The position numbers and the translations under genes are program-made. A DNA stretch of 61,076 bases, the filler included, from Hausera hauseri (lineage: Eukaryota): NCBI GenBank assembly GCA_046269625.1. It is 10 parts of 10 records of this genome, joined end to end, with 100 filler letters (N's around TTAATTAATTAA, not from the genome) between each part and the next. Parts side by side here need not be neighbours in the genome. Positions count along the whole stretch, not along the records: positions 4,401 to 11,376 come from JBJURY010047109.1; 9 more parts are not named here. One strand, written 5' to 3'. The notes beneath the pieces were generated by a model that saw only the letters and a program-made list of their open reading frames with translations, had not been told where the DNA came from and ran no database searches. Below are positions 1 through 56,412 of the stretch, one piece after another (the first letter of the stretch is position 1; every line of letters begins with the position of its first letter).

Positions 1-1480
1 AGCAACAACACATCCGTCTTGAGGTAAACATCACTGTATTCCAGATTTTTTGAGCATGTTGGTAGTCCTCATCACTAATATCGCAGTCCGACAGCTGGCT
101 ATCAAAACCATCCTTGCCCGGTAATGAGGTCTCATCCAGTGTTTCCCATGAAGTTATCTAGTCATAGGGAAACACTCCTTTCCTTTAGACTAGATCAAGT
201 GCAGTGGGAAAGAACCGCTTCGTTTCCTTGAGTACTTCTGCAGGGAGTTTCTTCACTAAACTGTCCAGTGATGATGATATGAAACGAAATCTGTCTACGA
301 AGCGAAGCCTGATTTTGTCTACGTGCTTAGTGAAAGTGATGTATTTTTCCTCACTCTTTGGAATCACATTTATATTACAATCAATGTTGCCTAATTCTCG
401 GACTATGAAATGGGAATCATAGCCACTGAGATTATGAAACACTACAGGCACATGTGTGTATGTTTTGCAGCGAAGATTGCAATTGTTGCATGCTGCGCCC
501 CGACATTTGCCTGTAAAATGGCAGTGATCCGTGACTTTCCAATTTTCCTTGGTGAATGATTTGGAGCACAAGTAACATGCTGTTGCCTTGAGCCATTCAT
601 CTTCTTGTTTCCTCGACATGCTCATTGTATCCTTATGATGTTGCAACATATCTCCAATCCTATGAGCCATATCTTCAAGTCGTTTCATGAAATGTGCTGC
701 TGCACCTGAACCTCAGAATAAATATGGTTCACTGTCAAGTCCTTTGGCATACATGCAATAAGACGACAGGTCATGATCTTGGTATGCTCTCGTACTACTT
801 TGTTGTGAATTTGGATTGCAGCTCTGAACTTGTCTGAGAATAGCCTCAAAGTCGCAATAGACGACAATTGGTACTTTCTGCTGTTTTGCAACCGCTTTGA
901 ATTCTCTATAGTCCTCCTTAGGAAATTCATTTTTTATACAATTATTGCTATTGCAATAAATTTTATGGTCCTCTAACTTCTTCACAGCAGATTCGTCATT
1001 GAAATGTGAAAAACATATTTTGCAGATCTCAATTCTATGCTCATTTTTGTTATTTGAGAAGTTACTAAACAACTTAAGTTCTTGATCAAACATAATGTTT
1101 CTTTTCCCAATCATTTAGTAGGAGCAGATTCCTATGGTTCTCCAATTCCTCTTTGCATATATGTAAAGGATAGAATTTATCTGTTTAGTCCACTCGGAAG
1201 ATATTGATGGATATATGATTACTACGTTCAAATCTTTTTATGTCATCTATTTCTGGTGGGAATTCAATGCTACTGAAATCATAATTATGTTTCATGTTCT
1301 GATATACTGAAACTCGAGAAGCATGATGTTGACCTCGTACGAGTTTTGATAGAATGGCATACATGAAACACTTGTTGTCTTTAATTTTCACATTGATACA
1401 TGCCTTTTTCCGTTCAATTCATTCAGAAAGCTGAATATAAAAACCTCGTTTCATCAGTTCATATTCACAATTCTAAATAG
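1..1480 (-). pseudogene. Protein-primed family B DNA polymerase (Polinton/Maverick-like pPolB), N-terminal and exonuclease part, disrupted and truncated at the contig end
   Basis: Motifs in the expected order across broken frames: KKACINVKIKDNKCF, C-x2-C..H..C, VVYCDFEA, DHCHFTGKCRGAACNNCNL, VPVVFHNLSGYDSHFI, RKGVFPY, ISDEDYQHA, YLKTDVLL. Several stops and frameshifts. Confidence 0.85.
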
Positions 1481-1696
1481 ATAGTTAATTTTCATGAGAA
1501 CCGAATTAACAAAACTCACCATTTGTTTACAAGCTTTTCGGAAATAATGATTTTCGATTAAAGTCAATATTATATATTTCACGTGTGCTAGTCATTAATA
1601 TTGGCAATACAGAAAACCGATATTATTGATTTTAGCACACTTGCACATGTGCTGCGCACCTGCACAGTGCACCAATCGATGTGCACTGCACTGCAC

Positions 1697-1910
1697 CATT
1701 GATTCGTACTTTGTCCCAATCGATTCGGCCAACTGTGCAATGTGCAGTTATCGATTTGTGAAATGTGAAAAAATGTGCATAGCAACGGTGCCTAACAACG
1801 CCGTCGCGTAGCACACTACGGATCGATAGCGCACCACGTGCATTATCGATTGGCACATGAGAAAAATTGATTTATCGATTCCCCCCCCCCTTCCGGGGGT
1901 GGGACAGAAC
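1697..1910 (+). repeat. ATCGAT/GTGCAC palindrome-rich repeat; diverged inverted partner of 4082-4300
   Basis: Aligns by eye to the reverse complement of 4082-4300 (actttgtccc.atcgattcg, tagcaacggtgccta, gatttatcgatt, poly-C, ggtggg.cagaac). Confidence 0.8.
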
Positions 1911-2145
1911 ATACATTTTTACACTACTAATAGAAAAGAATATCAGCATTAATATTGAGATGCAGATTACATAGTCCGCAAAACGTAAATGTAGCAATAC
2001 ATCAAACATCAAATATGACGAATTACGACATTTTACGATCCTGAAACTAAGATAAATTGATGTTAAAAGAAAATTGAGAAAACCCACAAACTACGTGTAA
2101 TATTTAAACAACTGTATATGCGTTAAAGCATTTTGTAAAAGGAAA

Positions 2146-3709
2146 TTATTTTTCACAAGATATGCATAGAACATTATTTGCGGACAGCATATTCTTATGT
2201 GCCTTCGAGGCATGGACCTTAAAATCATTTGTGAAGGTAGGGCTTGCAAGATCAACAGTAGCTGTCATTGAGCATTGTGGAAGGAAACATTTGGGTGCAT
2301 GTCTTTTTACTTCTTTGGTAAGACGAATTGCGTCGAGCATACAGGTTGATTTCGAATGGCCATGTCGCTTTAAGACAAAGGATGATTTCAGATAAGTTGT
2401 TCGATTTGAATTTATTTAAAAGACAGTTTATCATTGTTGATTCAACGTTAAGACGACTATCATTTTGGGTTAAGCCGAGCATATAACACATTATGTAGGG
2501 CACATAGTCGTACATATTATTGGGTGACTGTTTATCTACTTGTTCAGGTGCTTTCCTACCAAAGTTTAGGTTTTGAATTCTTAAGGCACATGCAAGAGGT
2601 AACAGCATACCCTTTATGTAATCTTTACCCGCTAGCTGATGGCTTCTGTCATCAATAGAATCTATAATATATGCGTATTTAAAACTTACGAGATACATAA
2701 CCTAGCATCCAGTGGCAGCAGTGAAAGGTCGGAAAGAAAACAAAGTGAACTTTGAAAGCTCGTGCTAATTTCTCAGACGAAAAAAGTTTAATAGCACAAG
2801 TTTCTTCATTATTAGGAAAGAAAAAAGGCCTTCTGATGGGCTTAGATAGAGAGTATTTGGAAATACCTCCATAGGAGCAGCACCAAAGAGGTCAAAGTCA
2901 GCATCAATGGGCTTTTCAGTTTGTAAAATAAATGGCATATTATTTATAAAGTCTGGTGACAGAGGTGTCTAAGTCTTCATGTTCCAACTGATGAAGTGAT
3001 TCAGATATGCTACCATTGGACCTTATTTTAATTTAAATTGTTAACAGCGATAGCTATGATTTATATTTCTCATCAAGAAAATAATCACGAGTATCTGTGG
3101 AGTTAGGATTTTAAGATGCTGTTTCTACAATTTTAAATAAGGTCTTGGGCGTAACAGGTGTTATAATATTCTGAAAGGCACTCAGAGCATCAGTGTCATC
3201 GGTCAGTGCAGCACGCCATAGTTTGTAGAGAAAGAGAAAAGTGTACACTACGGTATGAAAGCAATGTTTGGACAGTTGATTGACCGGAATATTGCAATTG
3301 CTGCGATCAAGAACAAAGCGCAGCAAGTTAAGGGCTCTGGCTACATATATGGCTTCTTGCCGCATGATTTCAATGTCTGTGAAAAATCAGGACCGATTTA
3401 GCGCCCAGAAAGAAGTTACGAAGTTCTAAGCAGACTGGAAGATAGTCATAGGCATTTGAAGAGGTCCTGGTACTAGCTGGCATAGTCTTATTTGGAGGCC
3501 ACAGAAAGATTAGTTCCAGAGGATGAGGTGCGAAATTCTTGGATTTTCTTTGCTGGTAATATTTTTGAGGCCAAAAAACAGACATGTGAGTCACTTAGTT
3601 GATGATGTAACGGTATTGGATCATATGTAATATGTAAGCTGGTGTCCAAGGTCAAAGAGGGTTTAGTAGATGGCCCTATAGTTTGAATAACAAAGTTCTT
3701 ATTTTCCAA
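2146..3709 (-). pseudogene. Unrecognised coding-like region broken into several same-strand ORFs
   Basis: Minus-strand ORFs 3488-3709, 3370-3594, 3111-3365, 2252-2698 and 2146-2340 are nearly contiguous. No motif recognised. Confidence 0.35.
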
Positions 3710-4081
3710 ATGGTTAGTTGGAAGTTTCTAACTGAGTGTGTTACATTTTCAGAAAATGACAAATGATGGTTGACTTTAGGATTCTTTTTTCCATTTCCTC
3801 ATGCTTTCTTGTTACATATGGTAGATGTTTTGGACTGAATATGCGAATTCCAGTGAAACTCCAAATATGCGAAAATCGTGAACTTGCGAACATCGCGATC
3901 CTTATTGATTAATTCTCTGCATGCCAATAAGAAGTATTGGATTATGTCATAACCTTGAAAATAGAAAGATCGAGGGAGTCCATAGAAATGTCTTCTTTTA
4001 TAAAGTTCTTGATAATTGGATTCGCAGTATTAACACAGTCTTTGCTTTGTCTTTCAATAACAAAGTAGGAGGAAAATGGCG

Positions 4082-4300
4082 GTTCTGCCCCACCTCTGGG
4101 GGGGGGGGAGTAATCGATAAATCGATTTTGCACATGCGCCGATCGATAGTGCATACTGTGCACAGTCGATCCAAAAAGTGCCTAGGAACGGTGCCGCTAG
4201 GCACCGTTGCTAAGGGCACTTTTGCACTTTTCACATATCGATCGCTGCACAGTGCACTATTGATCGAATCGATCGGGACAAAGTGCTAATCGATAGAGCA
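4082..4300 (-). repeat. Second, inverted copy of the ATCGAT-rich repeat, running to the contig end
   Basis: Reverse-complement similarity to 1697-1910; many ATCGAT and GTGCAC hexamers. Confidence 0.8.
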
Positions 4301-4400: not shown

Positions 4401-4510
4401 GGGAGGACGAGCACCGTCAATTAGGTCGGAACCCTAACCCGGCCGGCGGGGATGTTTGGACGAACACGGCCGGATGTGACATCCAGCCAGGACGTGACAT
4501 CCAGCCAGCC

Positions 4511-4560
4511 GGACGTCACGTGGACCGGATGCCAATCAGCGCGGCCCTACTTAAGCACCT
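4511..4560 (+). promoter_or_regulatory. Putative Pol II promoter of the recombinase gene
   Basis: GACGTCACGTG (CRE/E-box-like) at 4513, GCCAATCA (CCAAT box) at 4531 and TACTTAAG (TATA-like) about 40 nt upstream of ATG 4592. Confidence 0.4.
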
Positions 4561-4591
4561 CGGCTCCAGCTGGAGCTCCTTTGTTAGCCGA

Positions 4592-7150
4592 ATGTCACCA
4601 GACATGACAGCCAGCAAGTTTAGACAGCGATGCCCCGTGTGTAGGGTTTTCTACTGGCGCCTGAGAGTCCACCTGGACTCCGTGCACGGAGTGCTCAACC
4701 CGCAGGTTGGTTCTCGCGCTTCTGTCTCTTTGTCTTGATTGGGGTGGGGCGGTTTTTAATCTCTGCTCTCTCGTTTGTGTACCACACCCAGGAGCGCCGA
4801 CTCCTGCTGAGCTACGCTAGCTCCAGGGTGTCGGTGAGGGGAATGGCCTGCTCCATCCGCGGCTGTTCATATCGCGGACCCAGGGTGGCGGACCACCTAA
4901 ACAACGCCCACCGTGACATGAGCGCCAGAGCGAAGGCCCGCGTGCTTCGCAAACTCCAGTGGGCCAAGACTATGGAGGGGATGAGGGAGCTGAGGGCTTC
5001 CGGTCCACGCCCTCGTCTGGCCACTGCCCTGGACCTGGAGGAGGAGGCTGGACCGCCAGCGGACCAGGCTCCAGAGCCAGCCGACCAGGAGGACGCGGCT
5101 GCCATGCCACCGCCAGCCGCACCTCTGTCTCCTGCGGTCCCGCCCGCCTCACCACCTCAGTCTCCTGCGGTCCCACCTGCCCCTCACCTCTCTCCTGGAG
5201 ACCCGCCCGCGGCTCCGACGCCTCCGGAGCTGCCACCGTCGGCCCCACGCCCTCCTGCGAGCCCGCCAGCTGCCCCTGCGAGCCCTGGGGTCCCCTCGCC
5301 TCCTCCGAGCCCCTTCAGGGAACCCAGGAGCCCCACCCCGCCTGCCTGGAGCCCTCCCACACCGTCGGTGCGCCCAAGGAGTTCGGGCTGGAGGCCCTCC
5401 CCGCCCAGACGCTGGTCCCCGCTGCGCTCCCCGGCGCCGGGCCCCTCCGGGTCACCGAGACTGCTGCCTCGCCTCACTCCCTACTACCCTCCCCGCTCCC
5501 GCTCTCCCACCCGCTCCCGCTCTCCCACCCCGCCCGACTGGTCCCCAGCACCATCTCAGGGATCCTCCAGTACCCCCAGGGCGCTCCCTCGCCTCAGTCC
5601 CTACCCTCTGCGCTCCCGCTCTCCCACCCCGCCCGTCTGGTCCCCAGCGCCATCTCCGGGACCCTCCAGGACCCCCAGGGCGTTGCCTCGCATCTGTCCC
5701 TACCCTCTCCGCTCCCGCTCTCCCACCCCGCCCGCCCGGTCACCGGCACCATCTCCGGGACCATCCAGGACCCCGAGGGCGCGCGCTGCTCGGCCGGCCG
5801 TGGCCGCGGACGATCCGGGGCCCGTGAGCTCTCGCCCCTCGCGACCGGCACCGGTAGGTGAACTGCTAGCTTTGTTCCCCGACTCTGTGCGCTGCTACGT
5901 GGAGGAGTATGCGTCGTTCCTCGTGGGCGCGGTACCTTCCACGAAGCACAGAGAAAATGCAACCTCCAAGGTGGGCCGGGTGGCCGCGTTCATCGCCCAC
6001 ATGGCCCAGGGGAAGACCGGCCTGGGCTCGTGGCTCTTCCTGCACGATGCGCCACGGCTCCTGGGCTGGCCGGCCGAACTGACCAGGCTGGACAGGGCCG
6101 TGACGACGGTGAGGGTGTACTTGGTGAACACCAGTCAGTTCATGGGCTACTTCGTGGAGACGCCCCCACGGGGCTCCAGGATGACGGGCCGGCAGATCGC
6201 GGTCGTGACCAGGGCCTTGACGGCGGCGACTAGCCAGATCGGGACCGCGGTGGTGCTCCAGCAGATCAAGGTGAAGCGTGACAAAGCTAAGCGCATGGTA
6301 ACGCCAGGCTCCGTCCGCAGATGCATAGCGCTATGCGCGAGCCTCGTCCCGCGGACCTTGAGGCGGCTCTCGCGGAGGAGCGGCGACGAAGGAGAGCGCC
6401 GACGGCTCTTTGCGCTCCTTGGTCTGTTCGTGACCTGCCTCTACGGCCATCGACCGGGGGTCCTGGTGAATATGACCGTCGATGAGCTGGAGGAGGCCAA
6501 GGAGGGTTCGTCGGCGAACGACGCCGGACTCGTCATCAACGTGAGTAGGCCGGCGCTCGGCCCATCCACACACACACACACACACATCCATACATCCACG
6601 TTAGCGTTCCCTTAATTCGGTTCTCTCGTCCCGAAGGTGGCCCAGCACAAGACCAACCGCGCCTTCGGGTGCGCCCAGCTATACCTCACCAGGGAGGAGT
6701 ACGGGTGGCTGGAGCGCTGGATGGAGCTCCGGGCCGAGCTGCGGCCCACCTGCGACCTGGTGGTGTTCAACGCTAACTTCGGGCCGCTCACCCGGCTTAC
6801 CAAGCACGCCAGACAGGCCTGGGGGGAGATGGGACTTCCAGGAAGTCCATCCTTAACCGACCTGCGGACGGCGGTAGCCACGATGGTGGGTCGGCCAAAC
6901 ACAACACCCACCCTAACCACACCATCGGTAGTGACTACGCCACCCTAACCCATCTCTCTCTCTCCCCCAGGCCCGAGACGTCCACTGCGGCGAGGTCAGG
7001 AGGCAGATGGCCAGGGTGATGTGTCACGACACGTCCACGGCGGACCGCTTTTACGCGCACCACCTGAACGTGACCCAGATGGCCGAGATGCGGGCGAGGT
7101 TCCACCAGTCACTGGGCACTGCCCCGTCCGAGATAATAAACTTATGTTAG
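4592..7150 (+). CDS. Intron-containing tyrosine recombinase with two N-terminal C2H2-like zinc fingers and a Pro/Ser/Arg-rich linker (~763 aa), Crypton-like in general plan
   Basis: Exons 4592-4705, 4792-6540, 6637-6885 and 6971-7150 join through phase-0 GT..AG introns into one open frame. Fingers CPVC..HLDSVH and CSIRGC..HLNNAH. Catalytic set YGHRPG (R), HKT (K), TDLR (R), MCHD (H), RFY (Y). AATAAA at 7135-7140. Confidence 0.88.
5326..5780 (+). repeat. Coding tandem repeat, about four units of RSRSPTPPxWSPAPSPGPSRTPRALPR
   Basis: Repeated cgctcccgctctcccaccccgccc units about 96 nt apart. Confidence 0.85.
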
Positions 7151-8588
7151 CACCGACTTCCACAGTATCTTGCGTGTTTTTTTCTTGTTGTGGTGGTGGG
7201 TGGCTGCTACTGTTCAAGGGTTAGCCGGCTAGACAACCGGCCTCCACACCGAGAACCGACAGCCGGGCCAGAGAACAAGTCTCCACATCGAGTACCGAGA
7301 GCCGGACCAGAGGACCGGCCTCCACGACCGGTTCGGAGAACCGGGATGGAGGACCGGCCTGCAGATCCGGCCCGGAGAACAAGCCTACAGACCCGGCCCG
7401 GCGAGCCGGGATGGAGAACCGGAACCACCGAGACCCAGGAACCAGACACCCAGAGGACGGCATCCTCCGGAGGAACCGGCACCGCGGACCAGCAGACCCC
7501 CGAACCAGCCAGGCTGTGGGGGGAACCAGCATCGCGGACCGGAACCATCCAGAGAACCAGACACCCAGAGGACCAGGGGCTATGCCCCTGGTAAGGCACA
7601 GTGCAACCAGGAGAGGGGGGGAAAGAGTGAGGGAGAGGATGGAAGGACGGGAGGAGAGGGCAGAGGAGAGGGCAGAGAAGATGGGAGAGGAGAGGGGAGA
7701 GGAGGGGAGAGGGGAGAGGGGAGAGGGGAGTGGGTGGAGGCCCCGGAGGTCGGCCAACAGACGGGTGGCTGTCACGGACTGGCTCTCTATGGATCGTGTC
7801 GAGGACGACGGACAGCCGTCCAGGACAGTCTGTACTTAGGGGGACGAAGGCCACGGAGGGAGCATGGGGAGGAGGGAGGCGGGGAAGGGGAGGACGGACA
7901 GCGATGGTCCGACTCCCCGTCCGCCCCCCAACCACCGTGGCTCCACGCCAGGCCTGCGACAAGCCCCAACCGCGAAAGGAGAGCCACGGAGGGCTCCCCT
8001 TCCGATTGATTTTGCAAAGGGATTTGCTTGGATTTAAGGTTACGAGTTCGGGGCCGTCACCGTGGTTCACCGTGCGCGTGGCGCCGTCCGACGCATGCTC
8101 CAACGTTCGCTCCGCCGGCCGGCCCGGCGAGCGGGACCGGCGCGGCGGTTACGCGCGCTGTGGAGGCGGCCGGCCGGCGCCAGAGGCGCCTTCGGTGGGT
8201 GGTCGGTCCCAGACTAAGCGGTGGAGACGGCGCAGGGGGGCGGACGGTCGTGCGCCGGAGGTAGCGGGTTACGGACGGACACTTCTCCCGTGGAGGGAGA
8301 GCCCCGCCGCTCCCGTTCCCTGCCGACGCCCGGCCGCCGAGAGCCCCCGCGCCGGGACGGCCACGTGGGGGGGGGCAAGCGGCCGGTTGGGATTAGTGGG
8401 GGGTTGGCCAGGCCGGCCCGCGAGGACCGGCCTGACGTCCCCCACCTTCCCCCTGTCCGCTCCCCCGCCCCCTCGGCCAGAGTTCCGAAGCTTGTCTGCC
8501 TGCCGCGACACGGAAGAGGATGGCCCGCGAGCGGTCCAGCCCTCAGGCGCCACGGGCAAGCTCGTTTTGTGTTGACCGGAGGCTGATC

Positions 8589-9018
8589 GATCCTTCTCCC
8601 ACAGGTTCACCTACAGAAGACATCCTTGTTACGACTTTTACTTTCTCCAGATAGTCAAGTTTGATGTTCTTTCTCGGCGGTCCGCCGGGGCACCGGTCCG
8701 AGGACATCGCCGCACCATCCGATCGGTAGTGGCGACGGGGCGCGGTGTGTGTGTGTACAAAGGGAAGGGACTTGAAGCGGGCCGGCGGACCCGCCCTTAC
8801 TGGGAATTCCTCGTCGATGGGGGGGGAACAGCGGGTCACCCGCGCCTCTCGGCGGAGGGTGGACACACGCTGATCCGGCGTTTTCACAGACCTGTGATTG
8901 TTCCATCTCGTGTGGCGGCTTCCGAAGCCACCCGTCCGTCCCTCTAAGAAGTATGCCGCGAACACGGTCGCGTGAGGGCCAAGTCGGTACTTGGCACGGC
9001 GGGGATCTCGTTCGTTAT
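8589..9018 (-). pseudogene. Degenerate 3' portion of an 18S rRNA gene (vertebrate-like), with internal deletions
   Basis: The plus strand carries the reverse complement of conserved 18S blocks in the correct order: GATCCTTC..CAGGTTCACCTAC..CCTTGTTACGACTTTTACTT..AGATAGTCAAGTT, ATCGGTAGT.GCGACGGG, GTGTACAAAGGG.AGGGACTT, TTACTGGGAATTCCTCGT, TCACAGACCTGT, GTCCCTCTAAGAAGT, TCTCGTTCGTTAT. Confidence 0.9.
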
Positions 9019-10763
9019 AGGTATCGTAATTTACACCCCCATCCTCCGAAGTGGGGTAACCGAGGGACTAGAGGTTGACCCCGGGCCGAGCCCAACAGCG
9101 AGGGCCGGCTTGTTCCGGGGGACAGCCTAGCGCACGTGGCTTCCGACACGTCGCCCGCGAGAGCTACACTCCCATGGGCGTTCTCAGGCCGTCCGCCACC
9201 CTGACCCCTCGGGATGCCCCGGTAGTGTCTGTCAAAGACCACCTTTTATCCGGGGGAGAGCCTTCGGGGTGGGGGATCGGGGGCCCGGTCGCCGCCGGTT
9301 TCACCTACCTCGCGGTTGTGTACGGAAGGGTTTGAGAAACGTCGTGACTTCTGGAAGCCGCCGCACGTCGGAAGCCGGGACCCCGGGAAGGGCATCCGCG
9401 GTCGTCCTGCAGGCAGGGCGCCAGTGGAGGACAGCTGGGGGAGACGGGGCGTCTCGGTCTCGCTACCGATAGGACGACCGCAGGCTCGGGACCCGGAGAG
9501 CCAACCAGGGAACCTCCGCGGCATGCCGCGGTGGATGATAGCTGCGCTCCGGTTGTCATATGAGCCTGGGTCTAGAGGCGAGCCTGCAAGGTTGGAGGAA
9601 CCGTCCGATGAAGCGCCGGTGCCAGGCACCGGGGCCAAAGGGGGCCCTCCATGGCAGGCCACGTTTGCTGATCGGTCAGGTGTGGGGTGCGTAAAACGTG
9701 GGTGAGTGGATGCATGGTGGAGGTCTGGGCCGGAGCTCCAGACCTCCAGGGCACGTGAGGGGATCGCGCAATCCGCTCACCGTGCTTCGTTTCCGGACTG
9801 CATGTGCATCAGGAGCCATCCACGGAAGAGTCACAGACCTCCATGTGTGTGGGGGGGGGGGTCACCTGAGCGATAAGGGCATCCGCTCAGAGTGCGCTAT
9901 CTTCGGCCATGTTATCGGCTAAACCATCGGTGCTTCACGGAGCTCCAGAGAACCGTGAGAGATCCAGAGACCCATCCCTAGGCAAATGCATGCCCGGGAC
10001 GGCTCAACGCTTCGGCCTCTGGTCCCAACCCAGCCTGCTCAGATGGGTTCCTGGAGGGTGAAACACGTCAGGGGAAAACCGGTAAAAGTGACCGAAAATA
10101 AGCTCATAGAGGGCTAAAACCACCGTAGACGTACTCCCTGAGAGCCAAGCTCTCCGAAAATGTATGACAAGCATATGTTCTGACTTAGACAATATTCTGA
10201 CATACTCAGAAATTGCACTAAGTCCACTTTTTTACCCCTCTCCTGAAATCCTGCCGGTGGTGTTTTTTTCTATAAGGTCTTGGAATCCCCAATGACTCTC
10301 AGAACCGGATATTTGACCAGTACATTTTTTTAAACTCAAATTTCTCTGTCGTTTTTCAACTTGGAATCAAACGGATCGCACCGGGCTGTTCCCCGGACTC
10401 TGGGCTATCGGGCAGAATCGGATTTTCCCCGAAAATTCGCATTTTTGACCGTTTTCGGAGCACTTTTCCGGGTAGACTTTGCCGATTTTTCACGCCGCCT
10501 GCGAGCGGCCCAGAGCCGAACCGAGGCCACCGGCGTGTTCCCCGGGTTCTAAGCTTTCGCCCAGTATACGGCTTTCCTAGGTTTCGTGCGTTTTTAACGA
10601 TTTTCCTGGAGGTCGAAAATCACCCGGGGATCCGGCGCGATGCTGCGCCGGCGGGCCGCTGCCTGCATGCGGACTGAATCTGCAGCTGTTCACCGCTAAG
10701 TCTCGGCCCCTCTGGAGGTCCGATTTTTTTTACTTCGAGCTAGGCTTCTGGCAGTGACACGCT

Positions 10764-11376
10764 CGTGTTCCAGGCAATGTGTGGAGCACGGCGAGGCCGG
10801 TCCCGCGTCGCTCAGACCCGGAGAAGTGACACTTTTCCCCGGTTTTGCCGAAAACGGTTTTTGATTTTTAATAAATCGCAGGGGGGTCCTAGCGGAAATC
10901 GGAGACCACCAGCGTGTTCCCCGGAGTCTCGCGGTTCTCCCAGTGTACTGGATGTCCGGCTTAGACCGGGTTTTCACAGTTTTATCGCGGTTCGAAATTC
11001 GCCCGCCCGGAGCCGACACTTTGAAAAAATATCCGGGGACCGCGGAGAACCGCGAGGGGCGGTCTGCCGCGGTGGCGGAAGCCGAGAGAGTGAGCGGCTG
11101 CGGCTTGGCGGTGTGGCAGTGTAGCGGTCGATTTTGCTGGAGGTCCGGAAAACTAAACTTCCAGCCAGAGCTCCGTGAACCACACCATCGTGTTCCAGGC
11201 AATGTGTGGAGCACGCTGAGGCCGGTCCCGCGTCGCTCAGGCCCGGACAAGTGACACTTTTCCCCGGTTTTGCGGAAAACGGTTTTTGATTTTTATTAGA
11301 TCGCAGGGGGGTCCTAGCGGAAATCGGAGACCACCAGCGTGTTCCCCGGAGTCTCGCGGTTCTCCCAGTGTACTGG
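10764..11376 (+). repeat. Tandem repeat with ~425-bp period; second unit cut by the contig end
   Basis: 10764-10951 is nearly identical to 11189-11376. Confidence 0.9.
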
Positions 11377-22320: not shown

Positions 22321-22797
22321 TCATCTTAATCGATTTATTCTTTCTCGCAGATCAGTTTGGGAATCTGGTTTATCGGGACTTTTTAAAGGGTTCGTCTCTA
22401 GATCATAGCTATGGTAGGACTTGATGCGGATAACTCGGGTATAACTCCCATCGGAGTAATACTTTAATTCAGTGGCCTCCGCTCGACACACTGGACATGT
22501 TGTTTTTCCATTGTTGAGTGTCCACTTCTCCAGACAATCCCGACAGTATTTGTGGCGGCAAATCTTGTTATCCAATACCACATAACCTTGTCTCAGGTTG
22601 GTATCGCACACAGGGCATTTATTATCTTCCTTGTCCCAATCATATCTATCTAAATCAACCTGGAATGTCAATTTAATGGGCTCGAATATAAGGCCATCCT
22701 CGTCGTGATAAAGGTATCCATGAATTACCTTTTGCTTAGGGTTAATGAAACTCTTCCGTGGGTCACAGCTTACTTGTATTAAGGTCCAATCCGCCAT
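22321..22797 (-). CDS. RING-HC (C3HC4) finger protein, putative E3 ligase; possibly the C-terminus of ORF X
   Basis: CPVC-x14-CRHKYCRDC..W..CPVCR. The frame stays open upstream to about 22945, and the stop lies about 35 nt before the PPT. Confidence 0.85.
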   Translation of the reverse strand: MADWTLIQVSCDPRKSFINPKQKVIHGYLYHDEDGLIFEPIKLTFQVDLDRYDWDKEDNKCPVCDTNLRQGYVVLDNKICRHKYCRDCLEKWTLNNGKTTCPVCRAEATELKYYSDGSYTRVIRIKSYHSYDLETNPLKSPDKPDSQTDLRERINRLR

Positions 22798-23198
22798 GAG
22801 GTCTCGGTCTAAGTCTGTAATCTTTCCTTCTATTCGATATCTTTGATATTGCTTCTTTAGTAATATCTGGATTTGCTTATCTACTGGGACTATTATTTTT
22901 CCTGTCCTTTTAAGCGGAAGACTGAGGTAAGATAATTTCCTAACTTAGGGTTTTCCCAAACATATGTATTTTCGAAAACTTCTTTTGCTGGGGCAACTTT
23001 CTTTGATCACTTTCTTACTACAATATTCTGTAGTTATCAGCATTCTTGGTGAGTCCTGAATCGTTTTATAGCGGGCGTTTTCTTTGATTTTCTTCCCTAA
23101 AAGGACATTAACTTCGGCTATCATGGGTTCAACAACTTCCTTTTTTACAGACTTTACCTTCTGAGAGGTGCTTGGTTCGATTTATTGGTTTGCATCTT

Positions 23199-41385: not shown

Positions 41386-43200
41386 GCAATCTTAATCTCT
41401 TGACATATGAACAATTGATGAGATATCATGGGCTTCACACCTACTATTCTGACCCCATCATCACCATAAGGATATGTAATAAGGATATATCCTTTTCGTC
41501 AATAGATCCCTTCAACCAATAATTATTGATAAATTTAAACCAAACAAAAATTACCGAGTCAGTATCGCTGCTAGAAATGACATTGGAGATAGTGAGGACA
41601 ATTTAGTCGAACTTATGACACCAGCGGAAAAACCGGAACGACAAGTTCGAAATTTAAAAGCGGGTAGTAGCAAGCCTAACGAAATTTTCGTGTTATGAAA
41701 TGATCCGGATCCGGCATTTCAAAATTGAAAAATAATTTCATATCAAGTTTGTTATCAAGTCGTATCGCAGGTCGAAGAGGTTACTGTGAGTCAAATGGTG
41801 CGCCTCAATTGGTCGGATAAAAATGATAATTCGAATGCAAATTCTTATGCTAAAAGTAAAAGTGTTATTGACGAAGAAGTTACTATTTCTGGATTGTCTC
41901 ATTTTACCAAAGTTCAAACCTTGGCAGATCTACCTCACGCTCCTCCGACAAATTTATTCTGTCGACCGCAACAACAAACAATTGATTTAACCTGGAATCC
42001 ACCTCCTCGTCAGACTCTAAATGGCATTCTCATCCGTTTTGTCGTTCAATTTTATGAACTAAATCGGATGGGAGGCGAATCTGATATGTTAAGTGTTGAC
42101 GTTCAAGGTAGAACGACTGTAACGCTGAACAATATGTGACCGTGAACTGGTTACTCAATACGAGCTATTACTTTGAACAGGAATGATCTGGGTCCACCGT
42201 CGAAAAGTTTAGTTTGTGCCATCGTGGAAGCTAAACCAGAAGAACCAGAACAAGTTAAAGCTGCTAAAATTAACAACACATGTATCAGTATTTCTTGGTT
42301 ACACAGTACTAGAACCAATGGACGAATATTGGAGTACTGTGTTGCGGCGATTGGTTATGGTCTAACGGAACCCCTGCCTCGATGTCGGCCGCCTAATTTC
42401 GAAAAACGATATAATTACATGATTTGCTGTAATCGACAACATATTTCACGAGTATACGTCTTGACCAGAAATGCGTACAATGGCGAATACAAAGAGTCTA
42501 CGAAGATTGACGAATTCCCTGCAATACTATCATTAGAATTCATTTTAATTGTTAAAAAGGCTACTCCTTTAGTCCTCCGTGCTAGGTTATCCTTGGTTAT
42601 GCTCAAAGGCCAACGTGGAAAGAAGATTTATTAGACATTTCGAACAGTGACCATTCAAATTTGGATGTTCTTAAAAAAAATTCGCGATTAACAAAGTCCG
42701 TCGAAAAATTCCGCACGTTCTCATATGTGTGCAGTACAATTTACAATTCCATCGAATGCAATCTGAATATCCAAAAATCAACAAATGGTTTGCCACGAAC
42801 ACCAATCATTAGTGATATTCGAACGAGGGAAAATATTGTTTTTATGAGCTGGAAATCTCGTGGTACAACTGACAGTACGGCACCAATAATTGGGCTCATT
42901 GTGAACTGGACTAATCGGTACACAAACAAATTCAAAACTGTACCACCCGAACACAGTGCTCGAATGCTTTATATGAACAACGTTACTTGTTCGTCAGGTT
43001 TTAATTTTCAAATCAGGTCCCAGAATGCGATAGGCAAAAGTGATTATAGCAATCCAAAGAGTTTTCGAACTCAAGGAACGGCTTCCAAATTCGCAGATAC
43101 TAATACCCTTTTACCACAAAGGCAGATCAGGTCACACGGCGCCAATGTCAATTTAACAGCATTCGGTTCCGGCGAAAATTGTTCAGCGCAATTGTTTTAG
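41386..43200 (+). pseudogene. Dscam-like cell adhesion gene fragment (FN3 repeats with an intervening Ig-like segment), disrupted
   Basis: Successive FN3 units (TLADLPHAPPTNL..LTWNPPP..LNG; EAKPEEPEQVKA..ISW..TNGRILEY; TAPIIG..TCSSGFNF..NAIGKSDYS..RTQG..NLTAFGSGENC) follow the Dscam FN3 pattern. In-frame stops present. Confidence 0.65.
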
Positions 43201-54657: not shown

Positions 54658-56412
54658 TGTCATTTATGAAGATATTACAATTGCTATTAATAGAATCCAT
54701 TTGTATGCCTAAAACAATTGGCATTGTGGCTCATAATTGTTCAAAGCCTAAAGGACAAAAGAACTCCCTAATGGATTTGAAAATGCCCTGGAGCTGACCC
54801 AGAACAGTTAACAATTAATGGCCACAGCTATTGGGTCTACAAGGAGTCAGAATTTATTAAAGCTAAAATCCGAGAGTGCTGCGTAAAGAAATCATTCTTC
54901 TTATTCAATTGTGCGTACTACTCTGGGAATTCCGCTATTATTGAACCAACGACACCTTTTGAACCGATAATAATATCACGTGCGGAATGTCAAGACGCGT
55001 TTAAAATAGGAGTCATAACAATACAAAACGCGCAAATACCAACAGTACAAAATAAAATAAAATATACTCCCATTTTCAGAGCTGGAAGAATAGATAAAAC
55101 AAAGGATGGCAGTTGTAAAGGAGTAAATTACGATGTTGGAGGTACTATTGCACCTAGAACAGTAGCCATCGAAGACTACCAAGTTTAATTGAAGGAATAT
55201 GAAAGATTATTTGACTCACAAACTAAACTTATGACAACAATGAGTGAGTGTAAATATTAGAATGGAGAATGTGATATTGGAGAGTCTAAGATGACTTGGG
55301 AAGTGTCATCAAATAGATGTCATTTGACGTTGCTGAAAGAAGGAAAATTTAATAAAACAATAAGAAAAACGACCGATAAAGAGACAACGACTTATAAAGA
55401 AGGAGCTAAAGAAGTAAAGATGACAGAAGTGGCGACGGTAGTATATTCAGAAAATCCTGAAGAAATGATGAGATTTAAAATTATTGGAACGATCAATGAA
55501 TGTAATGAGGAAATGTCTAAAACTAATTACAAAGGTATCTACCTCTCGTCGAAGGAAATAGCGTAAGCTAAAACAAAATTAGATAAAAAGGACATAAAAC
55601 TGACGCAATATTTTGATAATAAAATCGACTTTCTGATCAACTACGTCAGAAAAGAGATCAGAAGTCTATATACAGCGATAATACTAAACGAATGTAAATT
55701 AAATAATGAAATAATACGAAATAAAATGGCATTGGTAATAATGAACCCCGATATGGTAACACCAATGATGCCATTCGGAGACGGAGTTATTGGAAGAGTG
55801 ATGGGGGAAGCATTAATAGCTATAGAATGTAAGAAAATAGAATTATCGATAAGGCCAACTGAAGAGTGTATGGCGGAATTACCAGTGATTGATAGTATGG
55901 AACCTCGTTACGCAATGCCAGTAACGAGGATATTGTTGGATGTTAATGCCCAGCCCATCTTGATGGACAATTGTACTTGTAATATGTCACCAATGTTTAA
56001 ATTAGACGATAATAAATGGATAAAAATACCAAAAAGAGAACCGGTTCCAAAACCAGAAACACTAAGTCTAATTATTTTACAAAGAAACCAGAAGTTTGAA
56101 CCATTAACCGGTATATCGCAGGGAGGAATTTACATACAACAAAATTTAGAAGATTACCGGCGAATGTTGTTATTTCCTCAGCAGCGACAGAGGGTGATAA
56201 CAGAGCTAAAAAGAAGAGTGATGTGGAACGGAGAAGGTTCGCCACAATGGGAAAATCGGATGGGGAAGGATTACTTGAAAAAGGTTGCAAGAAACGTAAT
56301 GGAAAAGATGCGGGGAAAATTTTTATATTTTGGTCAAGCTGCGTCAGGATTTTTAGCAATATATTTTATTATTAGTGCCTGACGGACAATATTTACGGCA
56401 CTCGGCAAAGCC
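54658..56412 (+). pseudogene. env: env-like class III glycoprotein, copy C
   Basis: Signal MSFMKILQLLLI, IVAHNC..SLMDL, ECQDAFK, DGSCKG, NECKL..ALVIMNPD, GEAL..EC..ECMAELPV..PVTRIL, GGIY..LLFPQ, FGQAASGFLAIYFII. Confidence 0.8.

What the first reader, a model, noticed from the sequence alone, without database searches (positions are those of the whole stretch)
4401..11376. Intact tyrosine recombinase gene embedded in a decayed rDNA-like unit
Seen: a complete spliced zinc-finger YR gene with the expected catalytic residues points toward a decayed 3' 18S rRNA fragment on the opposite strand. Read right to left, the contig is tandem repeats, GC-rich spacer, 18S fragment, GC-rich stretch where ITS1 would lie, then the antisense of the YR gene where 5.8S/28S would be. 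Established: eukaryotic YR elements (Crypton, DIRS) work through circular intermediates, and the well-known rDNA-specific elements (R1/R2, Pokey) do not use YRs. Inference: a selfish rDNA-mimicking or rDNA-targeting YR element that may exploit nucleolar localisation, Pol I transcription or rDNA amplification. An intact gene beside a heavily decayed rRNA suggests the rDNA relic is part of the element.
Basis: partly seen in the sequence, partly recalled or inferred. Interest (0 to 1): 0.72.

Follow-up and report, generated by a model that had tools for sequence, protein, structure and literature searches.

The report
Fish recombinase transposon beside decayed rDNA
An intact jumping-gene recombinase of a widespread but unnamed fish family sits next to a broken, low-copy ribosomal DNA pseudogene; the two are really joined, but the link looks like an insertion into old ribosomal debris rather than a new ribosomal-DNA parasite.

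Summary
Contig 4401-11376 carries an intact four-exon, 763-aa zinc-finger tyrosine recombinase (YR) gene (a 58%-identical homologue folds like XerA/Int/Cre). Facing it is the last ~490 nt of 18S rRNA, badly decayed (8589-9032), with no 5.8S or 28S trace. The YR belongs to a large teleost family (676 cluster representatives) that is multicopy and dispersed in other fish: it works like a Crypton DNA transposon. Contigs of two public runs bridge the rDNA/non-rDNA junction at 8032/8033 without differences, at YR-like depth, so a chimera is unlikely. But the same data show relic-type ITS1 that continues without the YR side, a spacer part about four times deeper than the YR, and far deeper host rDNA-like paralogues. 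Best reading: a young YR insertion in one copy of an old low-copy rDNA pseudogene family. Whether homologues flank rDNA could not be tested. The premise that rDNA-targeting elements lack YRs is wrong (Starships, 5S; nimaviruses, 28S).

The parts
4401..4591 (+). Upstream region with Pol II promoter-like motifs (two GTGACAT repeats at 4476 and 4494, ACGTCA 4513, CCAAT 4532); the element's left end is not in the contig or not recognisable
   Evidence: motif positions; 18-bp repeat; function inferred
4592..4705 (+). YR exon 1: start codon and first C2H2-type zinc finger (C14...H27)
   Evidence: matches N-termini of fish homologues
4792..6540 (+). YR exon 2: second zinc finger, Pro/Ser-rich repeat linker (about 5040-5860, 33- and 99-bp repeats), core-binding domain, catalytic R592
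6637..6885 (+). YR exon 3: K626 and R698
6971..7150 (+). YR exon 4: H723, nucleophile Y732, stop; AATAAA at 7135 followed by a T/GT-rich tract
7223..7600 (.). 39-bp minisatellite and related degenerate repeats
7610..7734 (.). GA-rich microsatellite (7- and 12-bp periods); possible insertion target
   Evidence: role inferred
7735..8032 (.). Unique non-rDNA stretch ending at the junction with the relic (8032/8033)
   Evidence: bridged without differences by one contig each in X1 and X5; other contigs leave the window sequence at 8033 and 8049
8033..8588 (-). ITS1-like GC-rich spacer of the relic, truncated at 8033
   Evidence: position after the 18S 3' end; deeper, divergent paralogous contigs align at about 8050-8230; identity as ITS1 inferred
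8589..9032 (-). Decayed 3' quarter of 18S rRNA, about 77% identical in aligned blocks to intact non-vertebrate 18S, about 24 indel breaks
   Evidence: folding no better than shuffles, z -0.72
9033..9760 (-). 5'-ETS-like GC-rich region joined directly to the 18S 3' part (about 1.35 kb of 18S missing)
   Evidence: much deeper paralogous contigs align in pieces at about 9230-9660; identity as ETS inferred
9761..11376 (.). IGS-like region with 47-bp dispersed repeats and a 425-bp-period repeat running off the contig
   Evidence: exact-match contigs at about 4 times YR depth and short very deep paralogues; IGS or satellite not distinguished

Best explanation
A Crypton-like DNA transposon of a widespread teleost family, encoding one spliced zinc-finger tyrosine recombinase from its own Pol II promoter, has inserted into (or been joined by a rearrangement to) the ITS1-like part of one member of a small, old family of rDNA pseudogenes (IGS - ETS - 18S with its 5' three quarters deleted - ITS1). 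Shown: the intact gene, its fold class (on a 58%-identical homologue), the dispersed multicopy family, the decayed relic, the junction, and relic-type copies without the junction. Inferred from what is known of YR elements: the recombinase excises the element as a circle and reintegrates it by tyrosine-mediated strand exchange. Inferred: the insertion is much younger than the decay, and the relic is a harmless landing site, not cargo.
For: Intact 763-aa frame with five catalytic residues whereas the relic's indel rate would put about 124 breaks in a stretch of that length. Top PDB fold matches are all YRs. 676 family representatives; 26 of 30 clusters looked up carry a species name and all 26 are teleosts; the closest cluster has 11 members on at least 7 sequences of different length in Xiphophorus hellerii, 5 of them chromosome-sized, and another has 7 members on 7 contigs in Gymnodraco. 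In X1 and X10 a contig follows the relic to 8033 and then continues with other, ITS1-like letters that do not occur in the window. Exact-match ETS/IGS contigs are 3.8, 4.3 and 2.7 times deeper than the YR in X1, X5, X12, and further relic variants exist (loose end at 8877, duplication joint 9016-8896). Degraded rDNA units outside arrays are documented in the human genome (PMC5381670, abstract).
Against: YR, junction and decayed 18S have the same depth within a factor of about 1.4 in X1 and X5, as expected also if they travel as one unit. The relic is not CpG-depleted (observed/expected about 1; 12 of 19 aligned CpG kept) and shows more AT-to-GC than GC-to-AT changes (30 of 117 against 13 of 101, p 0.026, non-vertebrate references), which fits an actively converting repeat family better than an inert orphan. 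The element's left end and any target duplication are not in the contig. Dispersal is shown for sister families at 34-58% identity, not for this family. Contig depth is not copy number.
Confidence: 0.56

Rival explanations
1. The YR is target-specific for rDNA spacer sequence: it recognises a site in ITS1 (at 8032/8033) and inserts in functional and pseudogenic rDNA units alike, as some Starships do in 5S and some nimaviruses in 28S; the relic is the target, not cargo.
For: Sharp junction with a relic-type copy continuing without it; the two sides share a few similar letters at the join; YR targeting of rRNA genes has precedent; target choice can differ between families of one clade (PMC11162782 passages).
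Against: Only one junction seen; no contig listed joins the element side to the deep, host-type ITS1 (64 loose ends were not shown); the continuation of ITS1 is not at the contig's left end; sister families sit on many chromosomes; the nimaviral 28S target motif is not at the junction.
Confidence: 0.13
2. One reading: the truncated rDNA is part of a composite selfish unit (spacer - ETS - partial 18S - ITS1 - YR) that the recombinase moves or amplifies, with selection keeping only the YR intact and the spacer repeats drawing the unit to the nucleolus.
For: Equal depth of YR, junction and decayed 18S in two runs; relic keeps GC and CpG; 9 of 13 listed runs hold at least 83% of the sampled words of the whole contig; several relic variants exist per genome.
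Against: Relic-type ITS1 without the YR side, and spacer about 4 times deeper than the YR; low depth against host rDNA-like paralogues; gene antisense to Pol I with its own promoter-like and poly(A) signals; the relic RNA has no retained fold.
Confidence: 0.12
3. CryptonV-type microsatellite targeting: the element ends near 7600 and inserted in the GA-rich repeat at 7610-7734, which merely happens to lie 300 bp from the broken end of an rDNA pseudogene; the 8032/8033 junction is then an older, unrelated break.
For: GA-rich microsatellite just downstream; the contig's left end begins with GA-rich letters; some CryptonV families insert specifically in microsatellites (PMC8869645 passage).
Against: The 9-nt match between the contig start and 7888 is not beyond chance (p 0.064); left flank unseen; no CryptonV sequence was available to compare.
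Confidence: 0.1
4. The contig is mis-joined at the 39-bp minisatellite, so the YR and the relic lie at different loci.
For: No listed contig in the four runs spans the minisatellite from YR to junction; X5's YR contig has 8 listed differences at 7317-7381.
Against: Depth over 7197-7662 is not raised (6.7-8.5 in X1, 16.6-19.8 in X5), so the minisatellite looks single-locus; contigs from both sides end inside it; the 8032/8033 junction itself is bridged in two runs.
Confidence: 0.05
5. The YR is a domesticated host gene fixed beside an rDNA pseudogene and acting on rDNA (for example excising or resolving rDNA circles).
For: Spliced, low-copy, coding region without differences in X1 (3 differences in 2846 nt, all upstream).
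Against: Homologues are multicopy and patchy with full catalytic residues; domesticated animal Crypton genes mostly lose them (PMC3212892 and PMC13465315 passages).
Confidence: 0.04

Closest known systems
Crypton DNA transposons (broad sense; CryptonV the likeliest subgroup, from recall)
   Same: Single YR gene with introns, no reverse transcriptase, multicopy in animal genomes; Cryptons make up 0.9% of the zebrafish genome (PMC9341512 passage); some CryptonV families are site-specific.
   Different: No DUF3504, so not CryptonA; two N-terminal zinc fingers and a Pro-rich linker; NCBI names the homologues only 'uncharacterized'; no Repbase sequence could be compared; no rDNA link found in the papers searched.
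Nimavirus tyrosine recombinases (telomere- and 28S-rDNA-targeting; PMC10871703)
   Same: C2H2 zinc finger + SAM-like + catalytic layout (majanivirus type); multi-exon genes (28S type); integration into repeats.
   Different: No viral genes in this contig; junction in ITS1-like spacer, not 28S; their 28S target motif is absent from the junction; sequence relatedness not tested.
Starship elements (fungi; PMC11162782)
   Same: YR gene near one end of a mobile unit; 23% of curated insertion sites lie in 5S rDNA.
   Different: Fungal DUF3435 recombinase and large protein cargo; neither seen here.
Degraded orphan rDNA units (PMC5381670)
   Same: Spacer plus partial, decayed 45S sequence at low copy.
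   Different: Here with a large 18S deletion, undepleted CpG and an intact transposon gene at the break.
R1/R2, Pokey, Dada
   Same: Association of mobile elements with multicopy RNA genes.
   Different: Retrotransposons or DDE transposases inserting in intact genes at fixed sites; no YR.

Membership tests
Tyrosine recombinase superfamily | Catalytic R, K, (H)xxR, H/W, Y residues | tested here: met
   R592, K626, R698, H723, Y732 conserved in 41-46 of 49 homologues; first His is Thr
Tyrosine recombinase superfamily | Core-binding plus catalytic fold | tested here: met
   Model of homologue P0009 (58% identical over the domain, mean pLDDT 84.5) matches XerA, XerH, lambda Int, Cre, E 3e-6 to 1e-3; the window protein itself was not folded
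Crypton (broad sense) | Single YR gene, no reverse transcriptase or other mobility enzyme | tested here: met
   16 of 17 other frames of at least 120 aa in 7151-11376 scanned, no Pfam family; holds for the contig only
Crypton (broad sense) | Interspersed multicopy distribution | tested here: inconclusive
   Met for sister families; this copy looks low-copy by contig depth
Crypton (broad sense) | No terminal inverted repeats; short direct repeats at both ends | tested here: inconclusive
   No long inverted or direct repeat between the left end and the junction; left end probably outside the contig
CryptonA | DUF3504 domain | tested here: not met
   Not among the 25 of 27 Pfam families shown for 48 homologues; the two not shown have one member at most; Phage_integrase weak in 8 of 48
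CryptonV | Clusters with Repbase CryptonV recombinases | not testable with these tools
   No Repbase sequences; defining report and the 2020 review not held
CryptonV | Insertion in microsatellites | tested here: inconclusive
   GA-rich repeat at 7610-7734; left flank missing; end match p 0.064
DIRS/Ngaro retrotransposons | Reverse transcriptase/RNase H and inverted or split direct repeats | tested here: not met
   None in the contig
Starship | DUF3435 recombinase and protein cargo | tested here: not met
28S-targeting nimavirus YR | Viral genome, insertion at the 28S motif | tested here: not met
   No 28S sequence; motif matches only at chance level and not at the junction
rDNA pseudogene (orphon) | rRNA homology with loss of invariant positions and of whole parts | tested here: met
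rDNA pseudogene (orphon) | Low copy and distinct from the host's working units | tested here: met
   Deeper divergent paralogues at ITS1- and ETS-like positions in X1, X5, X12; rough, contig depth
rDNA pseudogene (orphon) | Position outside or at the edge of the nucleolar array | not testable with these tools
   No host assembly held

The most novel reading that the evidence does not exclude
A vertebrate tyrosine-recombinase transposon subfamily that either targets the ITS1 spacer of 45S rDNA or carries a truncated rDNA unit (spacer repeats, ETS, 3' 18S, ITS1) as part of a self-mobilising nucleolar-mimic element; the relic's undepleted CpG and several co-existing variants would reflect ongoing copying. 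None of my eight literature searches returned such an element in a vertebrate.
Probability: 0.2. Interest if true: 0.75.

Novelty: new member of a known kind. Interest (0 to 1): 0.38.

Why it matters
On the best reading it is a tidy, apparently intact member of a large teleost YR transposon family that public protein annotation leaves unnamed; such intact vertebrate-adapted recombinases are candidates for testing site-specific integration, and this copy gives one end of a natural insertion. If the subfamily proved to target or carry rDNA it would extend YR-based rDNA parasitism from fungi and crustacean viruses to vertebrates and offer an rDNA safe-harbour integrase. As it stands, one junction in one lineage does not show that.

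Tried and rejected
Three-exon model starting at 4843: replaced by four exons after an upstream exon matched the homologues' first zinc finger. Pfam on the window's exons: no family; sequence search of the PDB with the family profile gave only XerA at E 1; identity as a YR rests on residues and fold search. Search for homologous loci to test rDNA linkage: none in viral contigs or JGI metagenomes; the one candidate L038 is chance, best E 0.37 with the family profile. No host genome held. No RNA holder listed among 13 runs, so expression is untested. No joint from the contig's left end to its right end among the listed joints, and no cover of 4401-4441 in the four runs: neither says anything about circles or arrays. 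Terminal 9-nt direct repeat 4401/7888: chance-level. Weak Rfam hits to microRNAs and others in the contig, E 2-9: chance. Longer fused forms: one 1132-aa Poecilia protein without Pfam domains. Earlier scan notes: nothing found in five look-ups. Literature searches listed no paper on this family beside rDNA; a 2024 review of rDNA and transposons has no occurrence of 'tyrosine' or 'Crypton' (PMC10946416 term search). Repbase and subscription papers were not searchable, so the family may be catalogued there.

Full report
Setting. The window is ten contigs joined by N spacers. The finding is one whole contig, 4401-11376, 64% GC, sharing no DNA with the other nine, which are 34-44% GC and carry retrotransposon and polinton-like frames. 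No host genome is held.

The gene. Four exons (4592-4705, 4792-6540, 6637-6885, 6971-7150) with three short phase-0 GT-AG introns give 763 codons without a stop. All four exons hit a profile built from 48 homologues without the window sequence. The protein has two C2H2-type zinc fingers, a Pro/Ser-rich repeat linker, a core-binding domain and a catalytic domain. R592, K626, R698, H723 and Y732 are kept in 44, 43, 46, 44 and 41 of the 49 homologues (of 155 proteins held) that cover the whole domain; the first His of HxxR is Thr here and in 31 of 49. Pfam does not recognise the exons and gives weak Phage_integrase hits in 8 of 48 homologues. A model of the closest homologue (P0009, 58% identical over 358 residues, mean pLDDT 84.5) matches XerA, XerH, lambda integrase and Cre in the PDB and phage integrases among viral models. 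Upstream lie CCAAT and repeated GTGACAT/ACGTCA motifs; AATAAA and a T/GT-rich tract close the gene. That it is a Pol II gene and an active enzyme is inference.

The family. One homologue finds 676 cluster representatives at E<=0.001. Of 30 clusters looked up, 26 carry a species name and all are teleosts, from eel and tarpon to zebrafish, trout, killifish and icefish; names are 'uncharacterized', 'hypothetical' or evidently unrelated labels. The closest cluster has 11 members on at least 7 sequences in Xiphophorus hellerii, 5 of chromosome size; another has 7 members on 7 contigs in Gymnodraco. Language-model neighbours are unnamed chordate and mollusc clusters. This is the pattern of an interspersed DNA transposon.

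The relic. Rfam finds the 18S 3' end at 8596-8747 on the minus strand (59 bits). A profile from intact 18S genes fetched as contaminants of public contigs extends the match to 8589-9032, positions 1362-1851 of 1862 (E 2.7e-43); profiles of 5.8S and of the first 1.8 kb of 28S find nothing at E<=10. Aligned blocks are about 77% identical with about 24 breaks; of 271 columns invariant in six references 162 are kept, 53 deleted, 56 changed; the RNA folds no better than shuffles. The references are not vertebrate. CpG is not depleted and AT-to-GC changes exceed the reverse (30 of 117 against 13 of 101, p 0.026); this is a hint of gene conversion among copies, confounded by lineage composition.

Other samples. 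Thirteen public runs hold the stretch, 9 with at least 83% of sampled words, none on record as RNA; one may be the source sample. Four of the 13 were laid on the contig at 82% likeness (the tables were cut to the best-supported rows). In X1 and X5 the YR gene lies on one contig each (depth 11.2 and 15.3; X1 has 3 differences, all upstream of the ATG). The junction at 8032/8033 is bridged without differences in both (14.4, 13.8), and the decayed 18S has similar depth (8.3, 12). No listed contig spans the 39-bp minisatellite between gene and junction, but depth there is not raised. Divergent, deeper contigs align at the ITS1-like and ETS-like positions (ETS-like 6, 102 and 42 times the YR depth in X1, X5, X12); I read these as the host's working rDNA. 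In X1 and X10 a contig shares the relic's letters up to 8033 and then continues with other sequence absent from the window: a relic-type unit without the YR side. Exact-match spacer contigs are 2.7-4.3 times deeper than the YR, and further relic variants appear at 8877 and 9016-8896. Contig depth is a rough guide, not copy number.

Reading. The join is real; the relic is old and belongs to a small family; the YR is intact, where the relic's decay rate would have put about 124 breaks in it. The simplest account is a young insertion of a Crypton-like YR transposon at the ITS1-like part of one pseudogene copy (0.56). The decisive test, the flanks of homologues, could not be run: no homologous locus was retrievable, and the element's left end is not in the contig.

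Comparison with what is known. It works like a Crypton; CryptonA, DIRS/Ngaro, Starship and nimavirus membership each fail a defining test; CryptonV (my recall of the likeliest group) could not be tested. YR elements in rRNA genes are already described: 23% of curated Starship sites lie in 5S rDNA (PMC11162782, passages) and two nimaviruses with multi-exon YRs insert in 28S rDNA (PMC10871703, passages and section 11; three supplements searched for fish names without result). Other papers seen: PMC3212892, PMC8869645, PMC4455052, PMC5753468, PMC13465315, PMC9341512, PMC7599744 and PMC10946416 as passages, PMC5381670 as abstract and outline. Eight searches listed nothing on a teleost YR family beside rDNA; Repbase and subscription journals were outside their reach.

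Verdict. Observation confirmed and refined; interpretation partly supported. New member of a known kind, interest 0.38; the novel case (a vertebrate YR element that targets or carries 45S rDNA spacer) has probability about 0.2 and would deserve 0.75.

Noticed in passing
window 7019-7056, run X5: Very deep contigs match only the conserved His/Tyr motif of exon 4 (bin depth 731 against 15), pointing to a second, high-copy YR subfamily in that genome.
   Followed up: no
window 10562-10618 and 11320-11362: A very deep tandem unit joins these two stretches in X10 and X12 (depth 163 and 2793): an IGS sub-repeat or a satellite related to the spacer.
   Followed up: no
window 8033-11376: The relic is heavily decayed yet keeps high GC and CpG observed/expected near 1, unusual for an old vertebrate pseudogene (background level from recall).
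   Followed up: partly
window 4401-4409 and 7888-7896: The contig's first 9 nt recur in the GA-rich patch before the junction; chance-level (p 0.064) but worth checking once the left flank is known.
   Followed up: yes
proteins P0020 cluster, P0038, P0108: Some homologues are called as long single frames on short metagenome contigs (possibly intron-poor forms); one carries a C-terminal SET domain and one an ATF7IP domain.
   Followed up: no
window 4432, 6911, 6943: Single CCCTAA (telomere-unit) words upstream of the gene and twice in intron 3; significance not tested.
   Followed up: no
window 1-4300: Fragmented DNA polymerase B and endonuclease VII frames, polinton-like; unrelated contig.
   Followed up: no
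window 11477-48018: Several contigs with reverse transcriptase, RNase H and integrase frames of LTR retrotransposons; one has a RING-finger frame at 22321-22944 and one a fibronectin-III-like frame at 42586-43200.
   Followed up: no
window 55567-56382: Frame matching the Monjiviricetes fusion glycoprotein family (E 6e-51), probably an envelope-like gene of a retroelement or an endogenous viral piece; unrelated contig.
   Followed up: no
L003-L037: At least 35 stretches in bacterial genome records match a eukaryotic 18S pattern; 7 of 7 checked are eukaryotic rDNA: contamination of public assemblies.
   Followed up: partly
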